From IMG/VR virus record IMGVR_UViG_2541047945_000006: DNA of 33,563 bases; one strand, given 5' to 3'. The notes beneath the pieces are model-generated. The model searched no databases. It had not been told where the DNA came from and saw nothing but the letters and a program-made list of their open reading frames with translations. This DNA comes from a virus. Lineage: Duplodnaviria > Heunggongvirae > Uroviricota > Caudoviricetes. Positions within the stretch are counted from its first letter, which is position 1. Every line of letters starts with the position of its first letter. Made by a program: the position numbers and the translations under genes. Shown here piece after piece: positions 1,636 to 14,128 of the stretch.

Positions 1636-1914
1636 TCATTTTTCCTCTTTTGGTTTATGAATCTGAATGGTCATGCCGCTTTGAGTGGTGACTACAACGA
1701 CAGAACCAGGCTGAAGACTGTTAAGATTGAATGCTTCGTAAAACGAATCCAAGGCCAGCGCTTTTTTATTCTTTCGGTTCCACCAACGCCATCCCTTGCT
1801 ACAGGCTACACTGACAATCCACTGCCCACTCCTGTAAGCCATATAAAACCAGATGAGCAAAACCTGAAGGAATGCTATCCAGTCAATAATCGTATATTTC
1901 GCGAAGGAGTCCAT
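1636..1914 (-). CDS. Hypothetical small hydrophobic protein
   Basis: ATG at 1912-1914 overlapping the stop of the upstream gene (TGATG) with AGGAGG 7 nt upstream; hydrophobic N-terminal half (IIDWIAFLQVLLIWFYMAY). Track ORF begins one codon earlier at a TTG. Confidence 0.55.
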   Translation of the reverse strand: MDSFAKYTIIDWIAFLQVLLIWFYMAYRSGQWIVSVACSKGWRWWNRKNKKALALDSFYEAFNLNSLQPGSVVVVTTQSGMTIQIHKPKEEK

Positions 1915-2819
1915 CAATTAACCTCCTGCGGCGGTTCCGGTAGCGGCATCCAGTGAGTTGCTTGCTCAATACCATTACCCGACTTAATCGTTGCATCTCC
2001 GCGCCGAAAAGTGCTTCCGGTATAGCGTGCGGAGCATATTAGCGGTTCAACCAGAGAGCTATCGAAATTCACCGAAATGAGCACGTTCTGATTCTTCTCA
2101 GGCATTCGCTCACTACAGCTTATCCAACTATCCGGAGTTACCGGATAGTTGCCCGATAGTGCATTCTGCTCCAGTGATGCTTTTACAAACCACGCTGCCT
2201 GAACTATAACGCCATGAATCCAGCGCAAATCAGCATCGCGATCTTTCTTTTTCATCTTTTCGCCACTTAAGGCCTTGCTTATGTGGCTGCGTACCAGGTC
2301 TTCATGTAATTCCTTCGTCTCCTCAATGGTGAAACCACCAGGCAGAAGAGCCGGAGTTACCGGAGAGCTGGTTGACGCTTCCGGGATTTCCCGAAAATTA
2401 TTGGTTGACGAATTCTTGCTTTCCCGAAAGTTTCCGGACTGAAGCATGGCGGTGCGGCAGGCGTTCCATATTTCGGCAGCAATATCGCGCTCGCTATCGG
2501 TTAATTTGTACGTGGAAACATAGCCAGAGAGCATTTCTACGTTTTCCGGAGTTGCTTCTTCCGGCACTACCGGCGCTGGCGGGGCGATGCGTCCAAGCAA
2601 CTTATTTACCTCTTTCGCCATCGCGTCATATTTATCTAAATGGCGATTAGCTTCTAAGCAGACTCGGCGCATCTGATCTGAGTTAACTCGTTTAACTGGA
2701 TCTGCTTCCAGCGATGCCAGCGCAATCCGTGCCAGTTCCATTTGTTCACCACGGGTAAGCCCGTTTTCAAGCGGATTTTTAATGAACAATTCAATACGTT
2801 CTTTGGTAATAGTGGTCAT
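1914..2819 (-). CDS. Phage protein with C-terminal DUF551-like region
   Basis: 301-aa ORF, AAGGAG SD 7 nt upstream; C-terminal W...SERMPE...HWMPLPEPP pattern recalls DUF551 proteins common in the accessory region of lambdoid prophages. Confidence 0.7.
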   Translation of the reverse strand: MTTITKERIELFIKNPLENGLTRGEQMELARIALASLEADPVKRVNSDQMRRVCLEANRHLDKYDAMAKEVNKLLGRIAPPAPVVPEEATPENVEMLSGYVSTYKLTDSERDIAAEIWNACRTAMLQSGNFRESKNSSTNNFREIPEASTSSPVTPALLPGGFTIEETKELHEDLVRSHISKALSGEKMKKKDRDADLRWIHGVIVQAAWFVKASLEQNALSGNYPVTPDSWISCSERMPEKNQNVLISVNFDSSLVEPLICSARYTGSTFRRGDATIKSGNGIEQATHWMPLPEPPQEVN

Positions 2820-2829
2820 GTGTTACTCC

Positions 2830-3093
2830 TTAACCCGCAGTGCTTTCAACTGATGAGGGGAACAAAATCTTTTCATCAAACCCTGCATTCATATCATGAA
2901 CAGCAACACACCAATCCATCGACGAACGATTATCAAGAGCCTCCATGATTTCATCCATGCGGCGTAGGTCATACAGGTAAATGCTTTTATCGCCAATGGT
3001 GTAAAAGCCAATTTTTTTCGGTGATGGACAGCGATCAAGAACGTCCTGTAATTCGCTCAACCATGCTTGTTCTTTTTTTGTCAAAGTTGCCAT
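2830..3093 (-). CDS. Hypothetical protein (87 aa)
   Basis: ATG at 3091-3093 with AAGGAG SD; tightly packed in the leftward operon. Confidence 0.55.
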   Translation of the reverse strand: MATLTKKEQAWLSELQDVLDRCPSPKKIGFYTIGDKSIYLYDLRRMDEIMEALDNRSSMDWCVAVHDMNAGFDEKILFPSSVESTAG

Positions 3094-3094
3094 A

Positions 3095-3619
3095 TCACTC
3101 TCCTTTGATGCGAATGCCAGTGGTACTCATTCTCCTGATTTCCCAGAGCACACGAGGAACACCACCGTTTCCGACCGGATCGCGTTTACTCCGCAGGGCG
3201 ACGCTTGATTCCGCCCAGCTTTTTCTTGGAGGAAGCTCTTTCACACGAACAAAACCAGCTGCGCGGAGAGATGCTCCTGATTCATCTGCCTGGGTGTACG
3301 TAATGCAACGTTGATAACCCATAGCCTTTGCTGCCCGCCAGACTTTACGTAAAAAATCGCAGATATAGCCCTTCATTTTTTCGTGCCAATCTCGATCATT
3401 CCCATTGCACCAACCATCAGGTGGAGTCCAGTTTTCTATCAGAGCAGCCATTTTCTTTGCTTTCGCCGGAGTAGCTGTTGCGGTATCGCAGTAATGACGA
3501 GTGTCAACCAACGTATCCATACCATCGATATCAAGTACGCAAAACCATGTGTGATTCGGCATTTCAACAGATGGTATTTGTTGCCCACGTCGACGTTTAT
3601 CAATAAGACATACACTCAC
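3095..3619 (-). CDS. Hypothetical phage protein; possibly Mom-like GNAT-fold DNA-modification protein
   Basis: 174-aa ORF with GTG start preceded by AAGGAGG; motif CITYTQADESGASLRAAGF resembles what I recall of Mom-family acyltransferase-like proteins. Family assignment is tentative. Confidence 0.6.
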   Translation of the reverse strand: MSVCLIDKRRRGQQIPSVEMPNHTWFCVLDIDGMDTLVDTRHYCDTATATPAKAKKMAALIENWTPPDGWCNGNDRDWHEKMKGYICDFLRKVWRAAKAMGYQRCITYTQADESGASLRAAGFVRVKELPPRKSWAESSVALRSKRDPVGNGGVPRVLWEIRRMSTTGIRIKGE

Positions 3620-3636
3620 TGCTTGCCTCCTTTACG

Positions 3637-3783
3637 CTACATCGCATTCAGATATTTGTTTTGATTCACTGATGGAAAAGAATTTCTCTTAAGCAACTCC
3701 TCTCTCGATGGCATTGGCTTTACGCGTTGGCTAATAATCATTTCTGCCGGAAGAATGCCGGGATTGTATGCAAGTCCTCTCAT
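3637..3783 (-). CDS. Hypothetical small protein (48 aa)
   Basis: Internal ATG of track ORF 3637-3933, preceded by GAGGA; lies 10 nt after the stop of the upstream ORF. Confidence 0.3.
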
Positions 3784-3793
3784 GGTAAATTCC

Positions 3794-4087
3794 TCAGTCA
3801 TTACTGATAGCGCCATAGCGTGAGCGGTAATTACGCAGGCGAGGGTCAATTTCAGGGAAGTGGGTATATGTGGCTTTGCGGAATGGTCGGATTGATGTCT
3901 GGTAAATTCGCTCGCGTTCTTCTTTCTCTGCAAGCCATATACAGTGGCGAAATTCCTTTTCCTCTTTCGTTTCCTGCGGTAGAGACATTATTCGATCGTA
4001 GTTTTTTCTGAATTTATCCAGCACCTCCGATACGGAATTGCCGGAACAGCGGCGTGGGTCATCCGCACCATACAGAGGCGCTGGCAT
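3794..4087 (-). CDS. Hypothetical protein (97 aa)
   Basis: ATG at 4085-4087 with AAGGA SD; fits the operon packing between ssb and downstream genes. Confidence 0.5.
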
Positions 4088-4110: not shown

Positions 4111-4494
4111 TTAGAAGGGAATTGAATCGTCGTATTCAGGATGATTTTGATGATTGCTACTTTGCTGCTGTTGGCTGTTTCCTGAAGTTGCAAATCCAAT
4201 CTTTGCATTCAGTAATTCAAGAGTGATTGATTGACCATTTTGCCCCTGATAAACATCAACCCTGATGTTTTCTCCGGTAATTTCCACAATGCCACCTTCA
4301 ACAAGAACACTACGGTAGTAATCCGCTTGCGCTCCCGGCTTGGCAAATACAACGGCGCTGTAGTTTGTCCATTCTTTCTTTTTTGTCTGGCGATCGTAAT
4401 ACTGAACGCCAGCACGGATGTTGAATCCGATATTTTCCCCGGCCTGAAACTCTCTTGCGGGCTTGTTTAGTCTTACAGTAATCGAATGTGCCAT
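4111..4494 (-). CDS. ssb: Single-stranded DNA-binding protein (phage SSB)
   Basis: OB-fold-like protein ending in the acidic SSB tail DDSIPF; start taken at the internal ATG (MAHSITVRLNK) that overlaps the erf stop (TAATG) rather than the track's upstream start at 4584. Confidence 0.82.
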   Translation of the reverse strand: MAHSITVRLNKPAREFQAGENIGFNIRAGVQYYDRQTKKKEWTNYSAVVFAKPGAQADYYRSVLVEGGIVEITGENIRVDVYQGQNGQSITLELLNAKIGFATSGNSQQQQSSNHQNHPEYDDSIPF

Positions 4495-5099
4495 TAAGCA
4501 GCCGCTCCTTCTAATTCGTCTCGTCTGATGTTGTAAACGTCCTGCGCTTTGTGCTGCTCCGGTGTGCCTTCGAGCATCTTCCACGCTTTGGCGAACGCCT
4601 GTTTAAGCTCTTCTACGGTGTTTTTCTGCATTGCTGCGTCAGTGAATGCCTTTAAAACCTGTTCAGGTGTAGGTGATGGCTTTGATTGCTTTGCTGCTGC
4701 GTTCTGCTGATGTTTATGCTCGTCTGTATCTGCATCTTTCGCATCATCTATGCCGAACAAACCATTGAGGCAATACTTGCGTGCATAAGAGCTTGTAGCT
4801 CCAGTAACTTGTGCAGAATCCATTCCTTTCTTGCTTTCTTCCTCTCGTGCAAGGGCGGTTGCCGTATGACTGTTTTCGCCATCGGTAATAGTTGCCGTGG
4901 CTTTCACGTAATACCGATCACCAATCAACACAACTTCATCGCTGATTGATAAAAACAGGCCATTCAGTAGCGGCTTAACGCCTTCAAGAATGTCTTCGCA
5001 GCTTCTGTATTTATATTTACCGAATGAGTTGTACTGATTCTTTGGCGCGTTCAGATTCTCCTGAATAGCTGCCAGTCTTGCGTAAAATTCTTTGCTCAT
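4494..5099 (-). CDS. erf: Single-strand annealing recombinase, Erf family
   Basis: Closely resembles P22 Erf as I recall it (MSKEFYARLA.IQE.LNAPKNQYNSFGKYKYRSCEDILEGVKPLL...). The track ORF starts at a TTG (5129); the first ATG is at 5097-5099. Confidence 0.8.
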   Translation of the reverse strand: MSKEFYARLAAIQENLNAPKNQYNSFGKYKYRSCEDILEGVKPLLNGLFLSISDEVVLIGDRYYVKATATITDGENSHTATALAREEESKKGMDSAQVTGATSSYARKYCLNGLFGIDDAKDADTDEHKHQQNAAAKQSKPSPTPEQVLKAFTDAAMQKNTVEELKQAFAKAWKMLEGTPEQHKAQDVYNIRRDELEGAAA

Positions 5100-5109
5100 A
5101 TGATTGTTC

Positions 5110-5280
5110 TCAGAATGGACATGGCCCAAGTAAATAACGCTGATTTAATACTTCAGTCTTTGCCGCATTTAAAAATACGCGAACACCTTCACGATCTCCC
5201 TTCTGGCGATACATTAACGCCTGCTGCGTGTACATGCGTCTCTGTAACTTGCTCTCCTTCACTGTGGTTGCAAGTGACAT
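5110..5280 (-). CDS. Hypothetical small protein (56 aa), kil/arf position
   Basis: ATG at 5278-5280 preceded by a strong AAGGAG SD; overlaps the alternative ORF 5189-5359 in another frame. Confidence 0.4.
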   Translation of the reverse strand: MSLATTVKESKLQRRMYTQQALMYRQKGDREGVRVFLNAAKTEVLNQRYLLGPCPF

Positions 5281-5732: not shown

Positions 5733-5761
5733 GCTAAAAATAAAGGCCGACTATGCGGCCT
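5733..5761 (-). terminator. Putative intrinsic terminator overlapping the stop of the 207-aa gene
   Basis: AGGCCG-CATAGT-CGGCCT hairpin followed by UUUAUUUUU on the minus strand. Confidence 0.45.
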
Positions 5762-6374
5762 CGGAAGGAAGTCCAATCATCTTATTCAAATCTTCTACCC
5801 GTAAAGCAGGAAGTGCTGTACTTGCTTTATCTGCTTCTTTTGGTAGCAATTCTTTGCTTTCAGGCCAAACTTCAATAAGTCGCTTAACTGTTGTGACTGA
5901 GTTCAAAGCAGCCCATACATTTGATTCGATATCCTTTTTCTTGGCTTCAAGTTTTTGTTGCAATGCGCAGATTTCATCAAACCTTTTTGTTATTTCGTGC
6001 TCTGCGTCAAACATGCATTTATCTTTGGTCGGAGTAGGGAGCAATATATCTTCGCCGTTGCCGTCTTTCCCATATGAATGCCATCCAACCCTTCTGCCAG
6101 ATACAGTCAGATAAATTGAAGTAGAACGAACATCGTATGAGTAAAATGAACATCCCAGTTTTTCAAGTTCTTCACTTATAGCTACTAACTTGGAATATAA
6201 ATGATCCACTTCCTCAGTTTTCTTTTTACCGCCAAACGCAATAACTCTGGCGTCAAGTGCAAGCTGGTTCTTTAACTTTGTTACTTCTTCAAGTTCAGTG
6301 AAAACCCCAGACTTAATTAAAGCGTTACGAGCGATTTCCTCTTTCATTCTCGTAGTTAAGCGGATTGATGACAT
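5751..6374 (-). CDS. Hypothetical protein (207 aa) in the pL operon between N/sieB and cIII
   Basis: ATG at 6372-6374 with GAGAGGAA SD; charged, coiled-coil-like N-terminus; no family recognised. Confidence 0.65.
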   Translation of the reverse strand: MSSIRLTTRMKEEIARNALIKSGVFTELEEVTKLKNQLALDARVIAFGGKKKTEEVDHLYSKLVAISEELEKLGCSFYSYDVRSTSIYLTVSGRRVGWHSYGKDGNGEDILLPTPTKDKCMFDAEHEITKRFDEICALQQKLEAKKKDIESNVWAALNSVTTVKRLIEVWPESKELLPKEADKASTALPALRVEDLNKMIGLPSEAA

Positions 6375-6385
6375 ATTAATTCCTC

Positions 6386-6589
6386 TCAAATAAGTGGTTT
6401 GCTGCCTAATTTCATTTTCTGGCGACCAACACAAGTCACCCCCATTTCACTGCGTGGCTTGCGGTAGTAAAGATTGTGCCTGTCTTTTAACCACATCAGG
6501 CTCGGTGGTTCTCGTGTACCCCTACAGCGAGAAATCGGATAAACTCTATTCACCCCTACAGAGAGCAAAAGAGAAACGCCGATGAACAA
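6386..6589 (-). other. ORF whose C-terminus resembles the lambda N C-terminus (possible N gene remnant)
   Basis: 67-aa track ORF ending ...YYRKPRSEMGVTCVGRQKMKLGSKPLI, which resembles the lambda N end (...WYSKPGERGITCSGRQKIKGKSIPLI) as I recall it; it lacks an arginine-rich motif. Confidence 0.4.
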
Positions 6590-7163
6590 CTCATGGTGGC
6601 AGGAACTAATGCATTTTTTCCTGCAAGGAATGACACTTAAACAGTTGATTCATATGCTAATCATCCTGATCATATTGATTATTGTTATGCCGGTAAGCGT
6701 AAAAGAATGGATAAACCTGCATAATCCAGAAATCCTTCCTCATTACTGGATGTATTACATCCTGTTGTTTTGCGTTAGCTATGTGCTTAACGGCGTTGTT
6801 AATTCCGCTTATCACGCTGTGACTGAAAGAATTGAGGTATTCGCTGCTCAGAAGCGCAAATCTAAAGAAGAGAAATACGTGCAAGATTTGTTTGATTCGT
6901 TAACTCTTGGAGAAAGAGCGTATTTGGCACTCGCTGTAGTCGCTAATAACCAGCTACAAACGGAAAAGGGAAGCCCTGAAGCAATCTCATTGCTCGAAAA
7001 AGGGCTTCTTATTCGGATACCTTCTGCTACTGGATATCCTGAAATCGACCGTTTTGTTATCCCAGAACGCTATAGAAATGAGTGCTACATTAGGTTTGCT
7101 GGGAAGAAAGACAGTCTTATGGATGAACTTATCGCTCAGGATAAGCACGGCAAAAACAAGTAA
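6582..7163 (+). CDS. sieB: Superinfection exclusion protein B
   Basis: 193-aa protein closely matching lambda/P22 SieB from memory (MNNSWWQELM.FFLQGMTLKQLIHMLIILI...); hydrophobic N-terminal region; convergent with N. Confidence 0.82.
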   Translation: MNNSWWQELMHFFLQGMTLKQLIHMLIILIILIIVMPVSVKEWINLHNPEILPHYWMYYILLFCVSYVLNGVVNSAYHAVTERIEVFAAQKRKSKEEKYVQDLFDSLTLGERAYLALAVVANNQLQTEKGSPEAISLLEKGLLIRIPSATGYPEIDRFVIPERYRNECYIRFAGKKDSLMDELIAQDKHGKNK

Positions 7164-7904: not shown

Positions 7905-8951
7905 TCACTCTGGTTCGCTGGGGAATATATTTATCAATTGTCCTGTTGAAATGTGTCCATTTTCTACAACCTCTAGGTATGAAATTTCAACAGTTGATTC
8001 TTTGGCTACAGCATTCAAAAACTCAAGAAGCTCATCAGTAGATGTTATGTCGGCTGAGGTTTTTATGGTGAAAGATTCACCATTTGAAACCCTTGTGACG
8101 TCAATATTTATGTCCTGATTTGTTTCTCCCGAGCGACGAACGCCCGTGACATAAAAGTTATCTCTTCTAGTTTCCTTTTTTCGATCAATTGATTGCCTTT
8201 GGTTTAAGGTATTCAACTGTTCTCTATTTACCACTCTCTGACCAATTGTTACCTTCTCAACTGACGAGTCTTGAGCAAGCTTTTTAAGCAACTTGCTTTT
8301 ACCATCCTCGCCGTGAGCCAGAACCTCTCTGCTAATGTTTGTTTGACCGCTAATCAACAACTTGAGCACATTGTCTTGTGCTTCGTTTACCGCTTTGGTG
8401 CTTTTTTCCACCAATTGCACCTGAGAATCTTGGTCATGTCGCTGTGTTTCGTAGTACTCATTGATCCACTTATAGCCTACCGTGCTGGCAGCTAAGACGA
8501 TAGCGGCGACGGCGCATAGTGCTTGCCTTCCTGTCATTTTGCCTATCGCTTGAGTTAACACTGTCACCACTCCGTTTACAATCGGATCTGAGTCACCATC
8601 CGCTTGGCTTGAGCCTTCGCTTATTCGGTAGACAATATCCAGCAAACCTTTCTCTGCATCTTTTAGCTTCTGCCGATTATGAGTGCTGTGACTGACTACC
8701 GTAAATGCTTTTTGTATTTCATGCGTAAGCTCTGCCATACCAAAAAGCATTGACGCAGTCAATGAAGAATTATATCTATTTGGATCGCCTTTTACATTAA
8801 TATTGATCTTTGGCCATCCACTGAAAACTACGCTAGGGAATGTGAAGTCGCTTGAGTCGATATCCTTCCTTCCGAGCATTTCTGTTACAAAAGATACAAA
8901 GTCGTCTTCTGACTTGATAACATATTGCGCAGGTTGATCAATCGCTGACAT
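7905..8951 (-). CDS. Uncharacterised 348-aa protein with one predicted transmembrane helix (rex-slot cargo)
   Basis: ATG at 8949-8951 with AAGGA SD, 76 nt downstream of the cI stop on the same strand; hydrophobic segment LCAVAAIVLAASTVGY mid-protein; no Walker A or other motif I recognise; unlike RexA/RexB. Confidence 0.8.
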   Translation of the reverse strand: MSAIDQPAQYVIKSEDDFVSFVTEMLGRKDIDSSDFTFPSVVFSGWPKININVKGDPNRYNSSLTASMLFGMAELTHEIQKAFTVVSHSTHNRQKLKDAEKGLLDIVYRISEGSSQADGDSDPIVNGVVTVLTQAIGKMTGRQALCAVAAIVLAASTVGYKWINEYYETQRHDQDSQVQLVEKSTKAVNEAQDNVLKLLISGQTNISREVLAHGEDGKSKLLKKLAQDSSVEKVTIGQRVVNREQLNTLNQRQSIDRKKETRRDNFYVTGVRRSGETNQDINIDVTRVSNGESFTIKTSADITSTDELLEFLNAVAKESTVEISYLEVVENGHISTGQLINIFPSEPE

Positions 8952-13183: not shown

Positions 13184-13604
13184 AATTCGATCCCCAGCAC
13201 ATCAGCAAAACGCTATTCACGCAGTACAGCAAATCCTTCCAGACCCAACCAAACCAATCGTAGTAACCATTCAGGAACGCAACCGCAGCTTAGACCAAAA
13301 TCGGAAGCTTTGGGCTTGCCTTGGTGACGTTTCGCGTCAGGTTGAATGGCATGGTCGATGGCTGGATGCAGAAAGCTGGAAGTGCGTTTTTACAGCAGCA
13401 TTAAAGCAGCAGGACGTTGTTCCTAACCTTGCCGGGAATGGCTTTGTGGTAATAGGCCAGTCAACCAGCAGGATGCGTGTAAGCGAATTTGCGGAGCTAT
13501 TAGAGCTTATACAGGCATTTGGTACAGAGCATGGCGTTAAGTGGTCAGACGAAGCGCGACTGGCTCTGGAGTGGAAAGCGCGATGGGGAGATCGGGCTGC
13601 ATGA
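13164..13604 (+). CDS. ninB: NinB (Orf-family recombination mediator)
   Basis: 146-aa protein essentially matching lambda NinB as I recall it (MKKLTFEIRSPAHQQNAIHAVQQILPDPTKPIVVTIQERNRSLDQNRKLWACLGD...). Confidence 0.9.
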   Translation: MKKLTFEIRSPAHQQNAIHAVQQILPDPTKPIVVTIQERNRSLDQNRKLWACLGDVSRQVEWHGRWLDAESWKCVFTAALKQQDVVPNLAGNGFVVIGQSTSRMRVSEFAELLELIQAFGTEHGVKWSDEARLALEWKARWGDRAA

Positions 13605-14128
13605 CTATCAAATCAAATACGCCAGCACACGACAAGGACTGCTGGCAAACGCCGCTTTGGCTTTTTGATGCACTGGATATTGAGTTTGGATTCTGGCTGG
13701 ATTCGGCAGCGAGCGACAAAAACGCTCTGTGCGCTCACTGGCTAACTGAGGCTGATGACGCGCTAAATTCTGAGTGGATAAGCCACGGTGCAATCTGGAA
13801 TAACCCACCGTACAGCAATATCAGGCCGTGGGTGGAAAAAGCCGCTGAGCAGTGCATACAACAGCGACAGACGGTAGTTATGCTTGTGCCAGGGGATATG
13901 TCTGTCGGATGGTTCAGCAAGGCTCTGGAGAGTGTCGACGAAGTTCGCATTATCACTGATGGACGGATTAATTTTATCGAACCATCGACAGGGCTGGAGA
14001 AGAAGGGAAACAGTAAAGGCTCAATGCTGCTGATTTGGCGACCGTTCATCAGTCCTCGACGGATGTTTACTACCGTATCCAAAGCGGCATTGATGGCGAT
14101 CGGGCAGGGCGTCAGGAGGGCGGCATGA
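13601..14128 (+). CDS. DNA N6-adenine methyltransferase (phage Dam-like)
   Basis: NPPY catalytic motif (IWNNPPYSN); internal ATG at 13601 overlaps the ninB stop (ATGA), preferred over the track's upstream start. Confidence 0.82.

What the first reader, a model, noticed from the sequence alone, without database searches (positions are those of the whole stretch)
1636..3619. Accessory cluster between xis and the recombination genes: small membrane protein, DUF551 protein, 87-aa protein, possible Mom-like protein
Four tightly coupled minus-strand genes with strong SDs occupy the variable ea/b-region equivalent. The 174-aa protein (3095-3619) starts at GTG with an AAGGAGG SD and carries CITYTQADESGASLRAAGF, which I associate with Mom-like acyltransferase-fold proteins that modify DNA to evade restriction. 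If correct, the phage carries two DNA-modification functions (this and the nin-region adenine methyltransferase).
Basis: partly seen in the sequence, partly recalled or inferred. Interest (0 to 1): 0.45.

Follow-up and report, generated by a model that had tools for sequence, protein, structure and literature searches.

The report
Truncated Mom-like remnant fused to DUF7739
The supposed second DNA-modification gene of this E. coli prophage is a recombination-made hybrid that keeps only the back half of a Mom-like enzyme fold, so it is very unlikely to modify DNA, and the rest of the cluster is ordinary phage accessory genes of unknown function.

Summary
They are a DUF4752 small membrane protein, a 301-aa protein with a C-terminal DUF551 domain, an 87-aa phrog_1714 protein and a 174-aa GTG-start ORF. 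The motif CITYTQADESGASLRAAGF does belong to the XF1762 family (NCBIfam NF045478, phrog_1384 'Mom-like'). A model of a full-length member is a GNAT fold whose best solved match is Mu Mom (8bv8).

The 174-aa ORF is a chimera, however. Codons 1-92 are 99% identical to a stand-alone 99-aa DUF7739 protein (CUS-3, Sf6 gp22). Codons 93-174 are the last 82 residues of a 163-165-aa XF1762 protein. The joint lies at window 3344/3343 and shows no microhomology.

The ORF lacks strands β1-β4 and half of helix α3. It also lacks every invariant N-terminal family motif, including the likely counterparts of Mom's essential R111 and S124. It has no Pfam Mom or GNAT hit.

The exact fusion occurs only in a small group of E. 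coli prophages integrated next to torS. It is absent from 5,426 complete E. coli genomes and 50,697 phage records. A second, Mom-type DNA-modification function is therefore not supported. The nin-region Dam methyltransferase is confirmed. Interest is low.

The parts
3095..3619 (-). 174-aa chimeric ORF (GTG start, AAGGAGG Shine-Dalgarno site): DUF7739 fused in frame to the C-terminal half of an XF1762/Mom-like protein
   Evidence: The identical protein is in public E. coli assemblies under the name 'XF1762 family protein'.
3344..3619 (-). Codons 1-92, derived from a stand-alone 99-aa DUF7739 gene. The last 7 codons of that gene (CNGFRVM, including the conserved CNGF motif) have been lost.
   Evidence: 91/92 residues identical to CUS-3 ECRS218_0058. 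99% DNA identity over window 3344-3636. PF24881 E 6e-21 and phrog_1239 E 2e-49. Family alignment A7.
3095..3343 (-). Codons 93-174 plus stop: the C-terminal 82 residues (end of α3, β5, α4, β6, the β6-β7 loop, β7) of an XF1762-family GNAT. The N-terminal ~83 residues of that fold are absent.
   Evidence: 98% DNA identity to Kapi1_007 (window 3091-3342) and 95% to the UTI89 P2-like prophage (window 2790-3343). BLASTP to Kapi1_007 residues 67-163. NCBIfam NF045478 matched only at profile positions 80-130. Secondary-structure map of the full-length parent.
3343..3344 (-). Recombination joint: ...TTACGTAAA | GTCTGGCGGG...
   Evidence: Three-way DNA alignments and BLAST end-points. No shared homology at the crossover. 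The reading frame is preserved.
2830..3093 (-). 87-aa protein of unknown function (phrog_1714; ST64T Orf-87 family). It arrived in the same DNA block as the XF1762 remnant.
   Evidence: phrog_1714 E 1e-50. 79 phage records carry a homologue. The gene directly follows a full-length XF1762 gene in PhiR44_2 (100% identical) and in UTI89.
1914..2819 (-). 301-aa mosaic ea-region protein (in the position of P22 EaA) with a C-terminal DUF551 domain
   Evidence: PF04448 E 4e-22 on residues 231-298, plus patchy hits to many PHROGs. Positional match to phage Gally 'EaA'. PMC10834534 describes DUF551 as a portable C-terminal domain in Ea22 variants.
1636..1917 (-). DUF4752 small protein (92-93 aa) with one predicted N-terminal transmembrane helix
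   Evidence: PF15944 E 3e-36 and phrog_667. The Kapi1_004 homologue is annotated with a transmembrane helix at residues 9-27.
3637..3783 (-). Flanking 48-aa DUF2737 gene (true ATG start at 3783), immediately upstream of the chimera in every copy seen
   Evidence: PF10930 E 4e-28. Gene calls in sibling loci.
13541..14128 (+). nin-region DNA N6-adenine methyltransferase (context only): the one supported DNA-modification gene in the window
   Evidence: PF05869 Dam, E 1e-64.

Best explanation
The region is the non-essential 'ea' accessory segment of the early-left operon of a P22-like/lambdoid E. coli prophage that integrates next to torS.

The 174-aa ORF is the product of an illegitimate, in-frame recombination. 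That event joined codon 92 of a 99-codon DUF7739 gene, of the type in CUS-3 and Sf6 gp22, to codon 84 of a 165-codon XF1762-family (Mom-related GNAT) gene. The event also brought in the 87-aa gene that follows XF1762 in P2-like phages.

The hybrid keeps the DUF7739 promoter context, Shine-Dalgarno site and start codon, so it is probably expressed from pL. It lacks β1-β4 and the first half of α3 of the GNAT fold. It therefore lacks the β4/β5 donor-binding cleft and the residues equivalent to Mom R111 and S124. It cannot act as a Mom-type acyl or aminoacyl transferase.

Most likely it behaves as a DUF7739 protein of unknown function with an inert or poorly folded 82-residue tail, tolerated because the region is dispensable.

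Shown: the chimeric structure, the position of the joint, which part of the fold is missing, and the distribution of the fusion.

Inferred: loss of catalytic activity, expression, and retention of any DUF7739 function.

The other three genes are ordinary mosaic ea-region genes of unknown function.
For: Chimeric structure:
- Domain split: PF24881/phrog_1239 cover residues 1-95. NF045478 and phrog_1384 cover only residues 80-147, matching the C-terminal profile portion.
- BLASTP: residues 1-92 are 99% identical to the CUS-3 99-aa protein. In the alignment of residues 71-174 to Kapi1_007 residues 67-163 (81% overall), residues 94-174 are identical but for one residue to Kapi1_007 83-163.
- DNA end-points fall at 3344|3343 with no microhomology.

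The full-length family:
- It is 135-165 aa. Its invariant motifs HRHNKPP, AGRPVAR, DDGxTLExxRTCT and NANSxLYGA all lie upstream of the joint.
- A model of the full-length parent (pLDDT 83) has GNAT topology, and the joint falls inside α3. Its best PDB match is Mom 8bv8, followed by ordinary GNATs.
- hhalign pairs family H21/R22 with Mom H58/Y59, and R67 with Mom R111 (parent-model P0019 numbering; H19/R20 and R65 in the call-29/30 alignment). Counting back without gaps from the shared 'ADE' motif puts S78 opposite Mom S124.
- Mom R111 and S124 are essential, and even a 20-residue N-terminal truncation reduces Mom activity (PMC13219725).

The N-terminal half is not a substitute:
- DUF7739 is not homologous to the missing GNAT half (hhalign probability 1%).
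- Its model has only two short strands.

Distribution:
- Only one 90%-identity cluster among 5.8 billion has the full architecture.
- No copy in 50,697 phage records or 5,426 complete E. coli genomes covers 80% or more of the gene.
Against: - The fusion is in frame and joins helix to helix. The model shows a continuous helix over residues 76-100.
- The identical protein persists in about 48 collection blocks. Those copies sit in prophages whose upstream modules (Erf/Abc2 versus RecT/Gp157) and downstream modules differ. It is therefore at least tolerated and may be useful.
- The retained tail includes the family's conserved ADE motif (probable Mom D149 counterpart). It also includes the conserved β6-β7 loop, at the position of Mom's essential DNA-binding insertion.
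- The low confidence of the tail in the fusion model is uninformative, because the alignment for that half was shallow.
- No experiment was possible.
Confidence: 0.82

Rival explanations
1. One reading: the 174-aa ORF is a functional Mom-like acyltransferase-fold enzyme that modifies phage DNA to evade restriction, giving the phage a second DNA-modification function besides Dam.
For: The tail matches phrog_1384 'Mom-like DNA modification protein' (E 3e-11). It scores 67 bits against NCBIfam XF1762, above the 50-bit cut-off. The parent family's closest solved fold is Mom. The ADE motif is retained.
Against: - Only 82 of about 165 residues of the fold are present. β1-β4 and the β4-α3 loop are absent.
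- The counterparts of Mom's essential R111 and S124 are missing.
- Pfam gives no Mom or GNAT hit for the ORF.
- Even the full-length XF1762 protein tested here (Kapi1_007) is below the Pfam Mom gathering score (23.7 against 27.1 bits). The family is 135-165 aa against Mom's 241 aa and has only a ~26-residue β6-β7 loop where Mom has its essential insertion (residues ~175-209).
- No function has been shown for any XF1762 member (no papers found).
Confidence: 0.03
2. The hybrid is a dead gene. The fusion destroyed both parents, and the product misfolds or is degraded. The DUF7739 part lost its conserved C-terminal CNGF motif, and the GNAT part lost half its fold. The ORF survives only because the ea region is dispensable and the event is recent.
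For: - The invariant C93-N94-G95-F96 of DUF7739 is replaced.
- The tail is low-confidence in the model, and the model has no significant fold match.
- Copies are nearly identical, with only R10L, D39E and R163I variants seen. That suggests a recent origin rather than long conservation.
- The fusion is rare compared with its parents, whose clusters hold 432 and 890 member sequences.
Against: - No frameshifts or stop codons have accumulated.
- The ORF is carried unchanged through several mosaic backgrounds.
- 92 of 99 DUF7739 residues are retained, including all other invariant positions.
Confidence: 0.12
3. The hybrid has a new, non-catalytic function. The retained half-GNAT includes the conserved β6-β7 loop, at the site of Mom's DNA-binding insertion, and the edge strands that often mediate GNAT dimerisation. 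It might tether DUF7739 to nucleic acid, or bind and poison full-length XF1762 enzymes of competing P2-like phages.
For: - The junction is in frame and helix-continuous.
- The fusion-87aa pair persists across different prophage backgrounds.
- Full-length XF1762 genes reside in P2-like prophages of the same host species.
- Mom functions as a dimer, and its insertion is needed for activity.
Against: This is purely inferential. There is no evidence that the tail folds on its own. The fusion is rare and shows no sign of diversifying or purifying selection. Half-GNAT fragments normally expose a hydrophobic core.
Confidence: 0.03

Closest known systems
XF1762 family protein (NCBIfam NF045478; phrog_1384), e.g. 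E. coli UTI89 P2-like prophage protein (165 aa), phage Kapi1 gp007 (163 aa), Pectobacterium phage ZF40 gp36
   Same: Residues 93-174 of the window ORF are about 98% identical to the last 82 residues of these proteins. The same 87-aa gene follows in UTI89 and PhiR44_2.
   Different: The window ORF lacks the first ~83 residues (β1-β4, half of α3, and all invariant N-terminal motifs). It has an unrelated 92-residue DUF7739 sequence in their place. It scores 67 bits against 204-206 bits for full-length members.
Bacteriophage Mu Mom (PDB 8bv8; Pfam PF25680), the Gly-tRNA-dependent adenine N6 hypermodifying GNAT
   Same: The parent family shares phrog_1384 with Mom, and Mom is its best structural match. 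The 'ADE' motif after β5 is shared (Mom D149).
   Different: - About 11% identity, even for the full-length parent.
- No Pfam Mom hit for the window ORF.
- The counterparts of R111, S124 and H58/Y59 are absent.
- There is no long HTH-like insertion.
- No com-like regulator was noted beside the gene; this was not examined systematically.
Stand-alone DUF7739 proteins (PF24881): CUS-3 ECRS218_0058, Sf6 gp22, HK75
   Same: Residues 1-92 are 93-99% identical. The upstream neighbour (DUF2737) and the Shine-Dalgarno site are the same.
   Different: The last 7 residues, with the invariant CNGF motif, are replaced by an 82-residue foreign tail. No function is known for the family (no papers found).
Mosaic ea/b-region genes of lambdoid phages (P22 ea genes, lambda Ea22 variants with portable C-terminal domains such as DUF551)
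   Same: Same genomic position between xis and the recombination genes. Same module-swapping behaviour: sibling prophages carry different DUF551 genes and different recombination modules around the same core.
   Different: In this case one module boundary falls inside two coding sequences, cutting a domain in half, rather than at a gene or domain border.

Membership tests
Mom protein family (Mu Mom, Pfam PF25680) | Score above the Pfam gathering threshold for the Mom model | tested here: not met
   No Mom hit at E<=1 for the 174-aa ORF. Full-length Kapi1_007 reaches only 23.7 bits against a cut-off of 27.1.
Mom protein family (Mu Mom, Pfam PF25680) | Complete GNAT core (β1-β7 with α1-α4) forming the β4/β5 donor cleft | tested here: not met
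   The Mom-related part starts in mid-α3 of the parent model, so β1-β4 are absent. The N-terminal DUF7739 half is not homologous to the missing part.
Mom protein family (Mu Mom, Pfam PF25680) | Essential catalytic residues R111 and S124, plus H58/Y59 (PMC13219725) | tested here: not met
   hhalign and motif counting place their counterparts (H21/R22, R67, S78 of P0019) upstream of the joint at V84. That segment is missing from the window ORF. The alignment itself is weak (E 0.007-0.017).
Mom protein family (Mu Mom, Pfam PF25680) | HTH-like insertion between β6 and β7 (Mom residues ~175-209), essential for activity | tested here: inconclusive
   The XF1762 family has a shorter (~26-residue), conserved but low-confidence loop at this position. 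The window ORF retains it. Equivalence to Mom's insertion is not established.
Mom protein family (Mu Mom, Pfam PF25680) | Produces N6-carbamoylmethyl-adenine in DNA using Gly-tRNA(Gly) | not testable with these tools
   This needs LC-MS of nucleosides or restriction assays.
XF1762 family (NCBIfam NF045478, equivalog) | Score above the curated cut-off (50 bits) | tested here: met
   67.2 bits. This is why NCBI names the identical protein 'XF1762 family protein'.
XF1762 family (NCBIfam NF045478, equivalog) | Full-length match to the profile, including the invariant N-terminal motifs HRHNKPP / AGRPVAR / DDGxTLExxRTCT / NANSxLYGA | tested here: not met
   Only profile positions 80-130 of 143 are matched. 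Full-length members match positions 2-130 with 204-206 bits.
DUF7739 (Pfam PF24881) | Score above the gathering threshold over nearly the whole profile | tested here: met
   75.3 bits against a cut-off of 27, profile positions 2-96 of 98. 99% identical to the CUS-3 protein over 92 residues.
DUF7739 (Pfam PF24881) | Conserved C-terminal CNGF motif and a stand-alone size of ~99 aa | tested here: not met
   The CNGFRVM end is replaced by the XF1762 tail, giving a total of 174 aa.
DUF551 (PF04448), DUF4752 (PF15944), phrog_1714: the other three genes | Significant full-domain profile match | tested here: met
   DUF551 scores 79 bits on residues 231-298. DUF4752 scores 124 bits on residues 9-92. 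phrog_1714 scores 171 bits on residues 1-87.

The most novel reading that the evidence does not exclude
The in-frame hybrid is not debris but a new function. Under this reading a catalytically dead half-GNAT, which retains the conserved β6-β7 loop at the site of Mom's DNA-binding insertion and the edge strands, is fused to DUF7739. It would serve as a nucleic-acid-binding module, or as a dominant-negative decoy against the full-length XF1762 enzymes of competing P2-like phages.
Probability: 0.04. Interest if true: 0.5.

Novelty: already known. Interest (0 to 1): 0.14.

Why it matters
The main value is as a correction. The window carries one supported DNA-modification gene (Dam), not two.

The case also shows an annotation pitfall. 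The identical protein is named 'XF1762 family protein' in NCBI records because a half-domain still clears the 50-bit cut-off. A motif-based or score-based reading would therefore wrongly credit this prophage with a Mom-like anti-restriction function.

It is also a clean, datable example of illegitimate recombination inside coding sequences in the lambdoid ea region. The event links a P22-like phage with a gene block otherwise seen in P2-like phages.

The full-length XF1762 family is a widespread, Mom-related GNAT with no known substrate, often followed by the 87-aa gene. It remains the more interesting target, but it is not present intact in this window.

Tried and rejected
1. Does DUF7739 substitute for the missing GNAT half? 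MAFFT had placed the XF1762 N-termini over DUF7739 residues 48-75. Profile-profile comparison gives probability 1%, and the DUF7739 model has only two short strands. Rejected.

2. Did the fusion arise by simple deletion between adjacent DUF7739 and XF1762 genes? No phage record or complete E. coli genome has the two gene parts close enough to be joined into one match covering 80% or more of the query. The XF1762-87aa block is instead found in P2-like phages. Recombination between different phages is more likely.

3. Alignments giving the fusion a deep alignment for both halves, using trimmed XF1762 fragments (A5 and A6), came out misaligned and were not used. The fusion was folded with DUF7739 sequences only (A8). 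The low confidence of its tail is therefore not evidence of disorder.

4. A Foldseek search of the fusion model against PDB found nothing with E<0.28.

5. Sequence searches of PDB with Kapi1_007, the XF1762 profile and the DUF7739 profile found no significant hits.

6. PADLOC found no defence-system match for any of the four proteins or for the full-length parent.

7. Literature searches for XF1762 and DUF7739 returned no papers.

8. A global hhalign of the XF1762 profile against Mom beyond Mom residue ~122 was unreliable. The C-terminal residue mapping (D149 to the ADE motif) therefore rests on motif inspection only.
Full report
**Observation**

The four minus-strand ORFs are present exactly as described: 3095-3619 (174 aa, GTG start), 2830-3093 (87 aa), 1914-2819 (301 aa) and 1636-1917 (93 aa from TTG, or 92 aa from the ATG at 1914). 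Each is preceded by AAGGAG(G) or AGGAGG 6-7 nt before the start codon. The genes are separated by 1 nt and 10 nt, and the last pair overlaps.

Profile searches show that they are real genes:
- The 93-aa protein is DUF4752 (PF15944, E 3e-36).
- The 301-aa protein has DUF551 (PF04448, E 4e-22) at residues 231-298.
- The 87-aa protein is phrog_1714 (E 1e-50).

A Kapi1 homologue of the DUF4752 protein is annotated with a transmembrane helix. The neighbours are:
- xis (1052-1270)
- a 55-aa phrog_676 gene (1310-1477)
- DUF2737 (3637-3783)
- abc2 (3794-4087)
- erf (4494-5129)

The window as a whole resembles P22-like (Lederbergvirus) phages such as CUS-3 and Kapi1, with an HK97-like integrase. Sibling contigs show the prophage sitting beside torS.

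**What the 174-aa ORF is**

The profile hits split the protein in two.
- Residues 1-95 match DUF7739 (PF24881, 75 bits) and phrog_1239. These are families of stand-alone proteins of about 96-99 aa.
- Residues 80-147 match only the C-terminal part of NCBIfam XF1762 (profile positions 80-130 of 143, 67 bits). They also match only part of phrog_1384 'Mom-like DNA modification protein' (profile positions 96-159 of 245).

Pairwise comparisons confirm the split.
- Residues 1-92 are 91/92 identical to the 99-aa CUS-3 protein ECRS218_0058.
- Residues 93-174 match the C-terminal end of the 163-aa Kapi1_007 and the 165-aa UTI89 protein P0019 almost perfectly.

Kapi1_007 is in turn 76% identical over its whole length to ZF40 gp36, which is annotated as Mom-like.

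At the DNA level the window follows the CUS-3 gene (99% identity, 3344-3636). At base 3343 it switches to the XF1762 gene: 98% identity to Kapi1 over 3091-3342, and 95% to the UTI89 prophage over 2790-3343. The three-way alignment at the joint reads ...TTACGTAAA|GTCTGGCGGG... and shows no microhomology. This was an illegitimate recombination that happened to preserve the reading frame.

The right-hand block also contains the 87-aa gene. In the P2-like phage PhiR44_2 and in the UTI89 P2-like prophage, a full-length XF1762 gene is directly followed by this same 87-aa gene (100% and about 95% identity).

**What is missing**

An alignment of 32 full-length XF1762 proteins (135-165 aa) shows that the invariant motifs all lie in the first ~80 residues. 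These motifs are HRHNKPP, GVAxAGRPVAR, DDGxTLExxRTCT and NANSxLYGA.

An AlphaFold2 model of P0019 (pLDDT 83) has the canonical GNAT order:
- β1 (residues 4-8)
- α1 (10-20)
- β2 (30-37)
- β3 (43-50)
- β4 (62-70)
- α3 (76-90)
- β5 (95-101)
- α4 (107-112)
- β6 (115-120)
- β7 (147-153)

Its best PDB match is the Mu Mom crystal structure 8bv8 (E 4.6e-8), followed closely by many ordinary acetyltransferases. P0019 and Mu Mom both fall in phrog_1384.

The window ORF, however, begins its XF1762 part at V84 of P0019, in the middle of α3. It retains only the end of α3, β5, α4, β6, the β6-β7 loop and β7.

The 2026 structure-function study of Mom (PMC13219725) reports the following:
- R111, S124 and R151 are essential.
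- Alanine substitution of D149 greatly reduces activity.
- H58, Y59, W48, Y159 and W181 are important.
- A 20-residue N-terminal truncation already reduces activity.

hhalign pairs the family's invariant H/R of HRHN with Mom H58/Y59, and the R of NRTCT with Mom R111 (E 0.007). Counting back without gaps from the shared 'ADE' motif (Mom A148-D149-E150, P0019 A102-D103-E104) puts the invariant S of NANS opposite Mom S124 (this step is my inference). All of these positions lie upstream of the joint and are absent from the window ORF.

The N-terminal DUF7739 half does not substitute for the missing part. Profile-profile comparison with XF1762 gives probability 1%. In the fusion model the DUF7739 half contributes two short strands and three helices.

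The fusion model has no significant PDB fold match, whereas the full-length parent had 385 matches at E<=0.001. The tail was modelled with a shallow alignment, so this comparison carries little weight.

**Distribution**

Among 5.8 billion 90%-identity clusters, only one (P0001, 12 member sequences) covers the whole ORF. Every other hit covers either the first 53% or the last 40-60%. None of the 50,697 phage records and none of the 5,426 complete E. coli genomes has a match covering 80% or more of the gene.

The exact 174-aa protein is nevertheless indexed in 48 blocks of the assembly collection. It always lies between DUF2737 and the 87-aa gene, in prophages next to torS. Around that core, the recombination modules differ (Erf/Abc2 as in the window, or RecT/Gp157). 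The downstream genes differ too: the 301-aa DUF551 gene, or 379 + 198 aa genes, or 252 + 86 + 94 aa genes. Known variants differ by single residues (R10L, D39E, R163I).

NCBI names the protein 'XF1762 family protein'. The half-domain still scores 67 bits against a 50-bit cut-off, whereas full-length members score 204-206 bits.

**Interpretation**

The best explanation (confidence about 0.8) is that the ORF is a recombination-made hybrid, probably expressed from the DUF7739 start. Its GNAT part is structurally and catalytically incomplete, so it does not provide a Mom-type DNA modification. It most likely acts, if it acts at all, as a DUF7739 protein with an inert tail.

The three alternatives considered are these:
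- A fully dead gene (about 0.12).
- A new non-catalytic function, such as a decoy or a nucleic-acid binder (about 0.03-0.04).

Several points keep the first two alternatives alive. The joint is in frame and helix-continuous. The fusion persists unchanged across several mosaic backgrounds. The retained ADE motif and the conserved β6-β7 loop lie where Mom has D149 and its DNA-binding insertion.

**The other three genes**

- The 301-aa protein is a patchwork that matches 13 PHROGs in pieces. It sits in the position of P22 EaA. Its DUF551 C-terminal domain has been described as a portable module in Ea22 variants (PMC10834534).
- The 87-aa protein is widespread in phages of Salmonella, Escherichia, Klebsiella and Serratia, including ST64T Orf-87. 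It is not restricted to XF1762 neighbours.
- DUF4752 is a common small membrane protein at this position.

None of the three has a PADLOC hit or a known function.

**Verdict**

The window carries one supported DNA-modification gene, the nin-region Dam methyltransferase.

The feature is an ordinary mosaic ea-region cluster containing a chimeric gene that is already in the databases. Interest is low. Its value lies in correcting an annotation-style over-call, and in pointing to the intact XF1762 family as an uncharacterised Mom relative.

Noticed in passing
window 5751-6434 (-): A 227-aa protein matching Pfam Nmad5 (nucleotide modification associated domain 5, PF18757, E 2e-71). It lies between the erf recombination module and sieB (6582-7163, +). 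It is present in several sibling prophages and replaced by cIII/kil in others.
   Followed up: partly
L007 3001-3763 (E. coli UTI89 P2-like prophage); L011 2508-3264 (phage PhiR44_2): A full-length XF1762 gene directly followed by the same 87-aa gene. The pair sits in the variable cargo region between the replication gene gpA and the portal gene of P2-like phages, next to ParM/StbA-like and ClpX-zinc-finger genes. It may be a mobile two-gene module shared between P2-like and P22-like phages.
   Followed up: partly
window 3095-3619; public proteins EQZ40688.1 and others (P0121, P0122): NCBI names the chimeric protein 'XF1762 family protein' because the half-domain scores 67 bits against a 50-bit equivalog cut-off. 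This is an annotation over-call for a truncated domain.
   Followed up: yes
proteins P0065, P0004, P0013, P0002: Other DUF7739-containing chimeras or extended forms exist. One is P0065 (120 aa), with a different tail that also ends in ...TGIRIKGE. Another is P0004 (241 aa), with an Ead/Ea22-like N-terminal extension. The recurring '...GIRIKGE*' gene end carries the AAGGAG Shine-Dalgarno site of the next gene and looks like a reused module boundary.
   Followed up: no
L014 5801-7533; L017 5801-7103 (sibling prophages): In sibling prophages the position of the window's 301-aa DUF551 gene is filled differently. One has a 379-aa gene plus a 198-aa DUF551 gene. Another has a 252-aa DUF551 gene plus 86-aa and 94-aa genes. 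The fusion-87aa pair and the integrase stay the same.
   Followed up: no
window 7905-8951 (-): A 348-aa ORF with no Pfam hit at E<=0.001, located between sieB and the immunity region. Sibling loci have either this gene or a CbiA/AAA_31 ATPase at the same place.
   Followed up: no
window 13541-14128 (+): The nin-region Dam methyltransferase ORF is listed from a GTG that overlaps ninB. The Pfam profile starts at residue 24, so the true start is probably further downstream.
   Followed up: no
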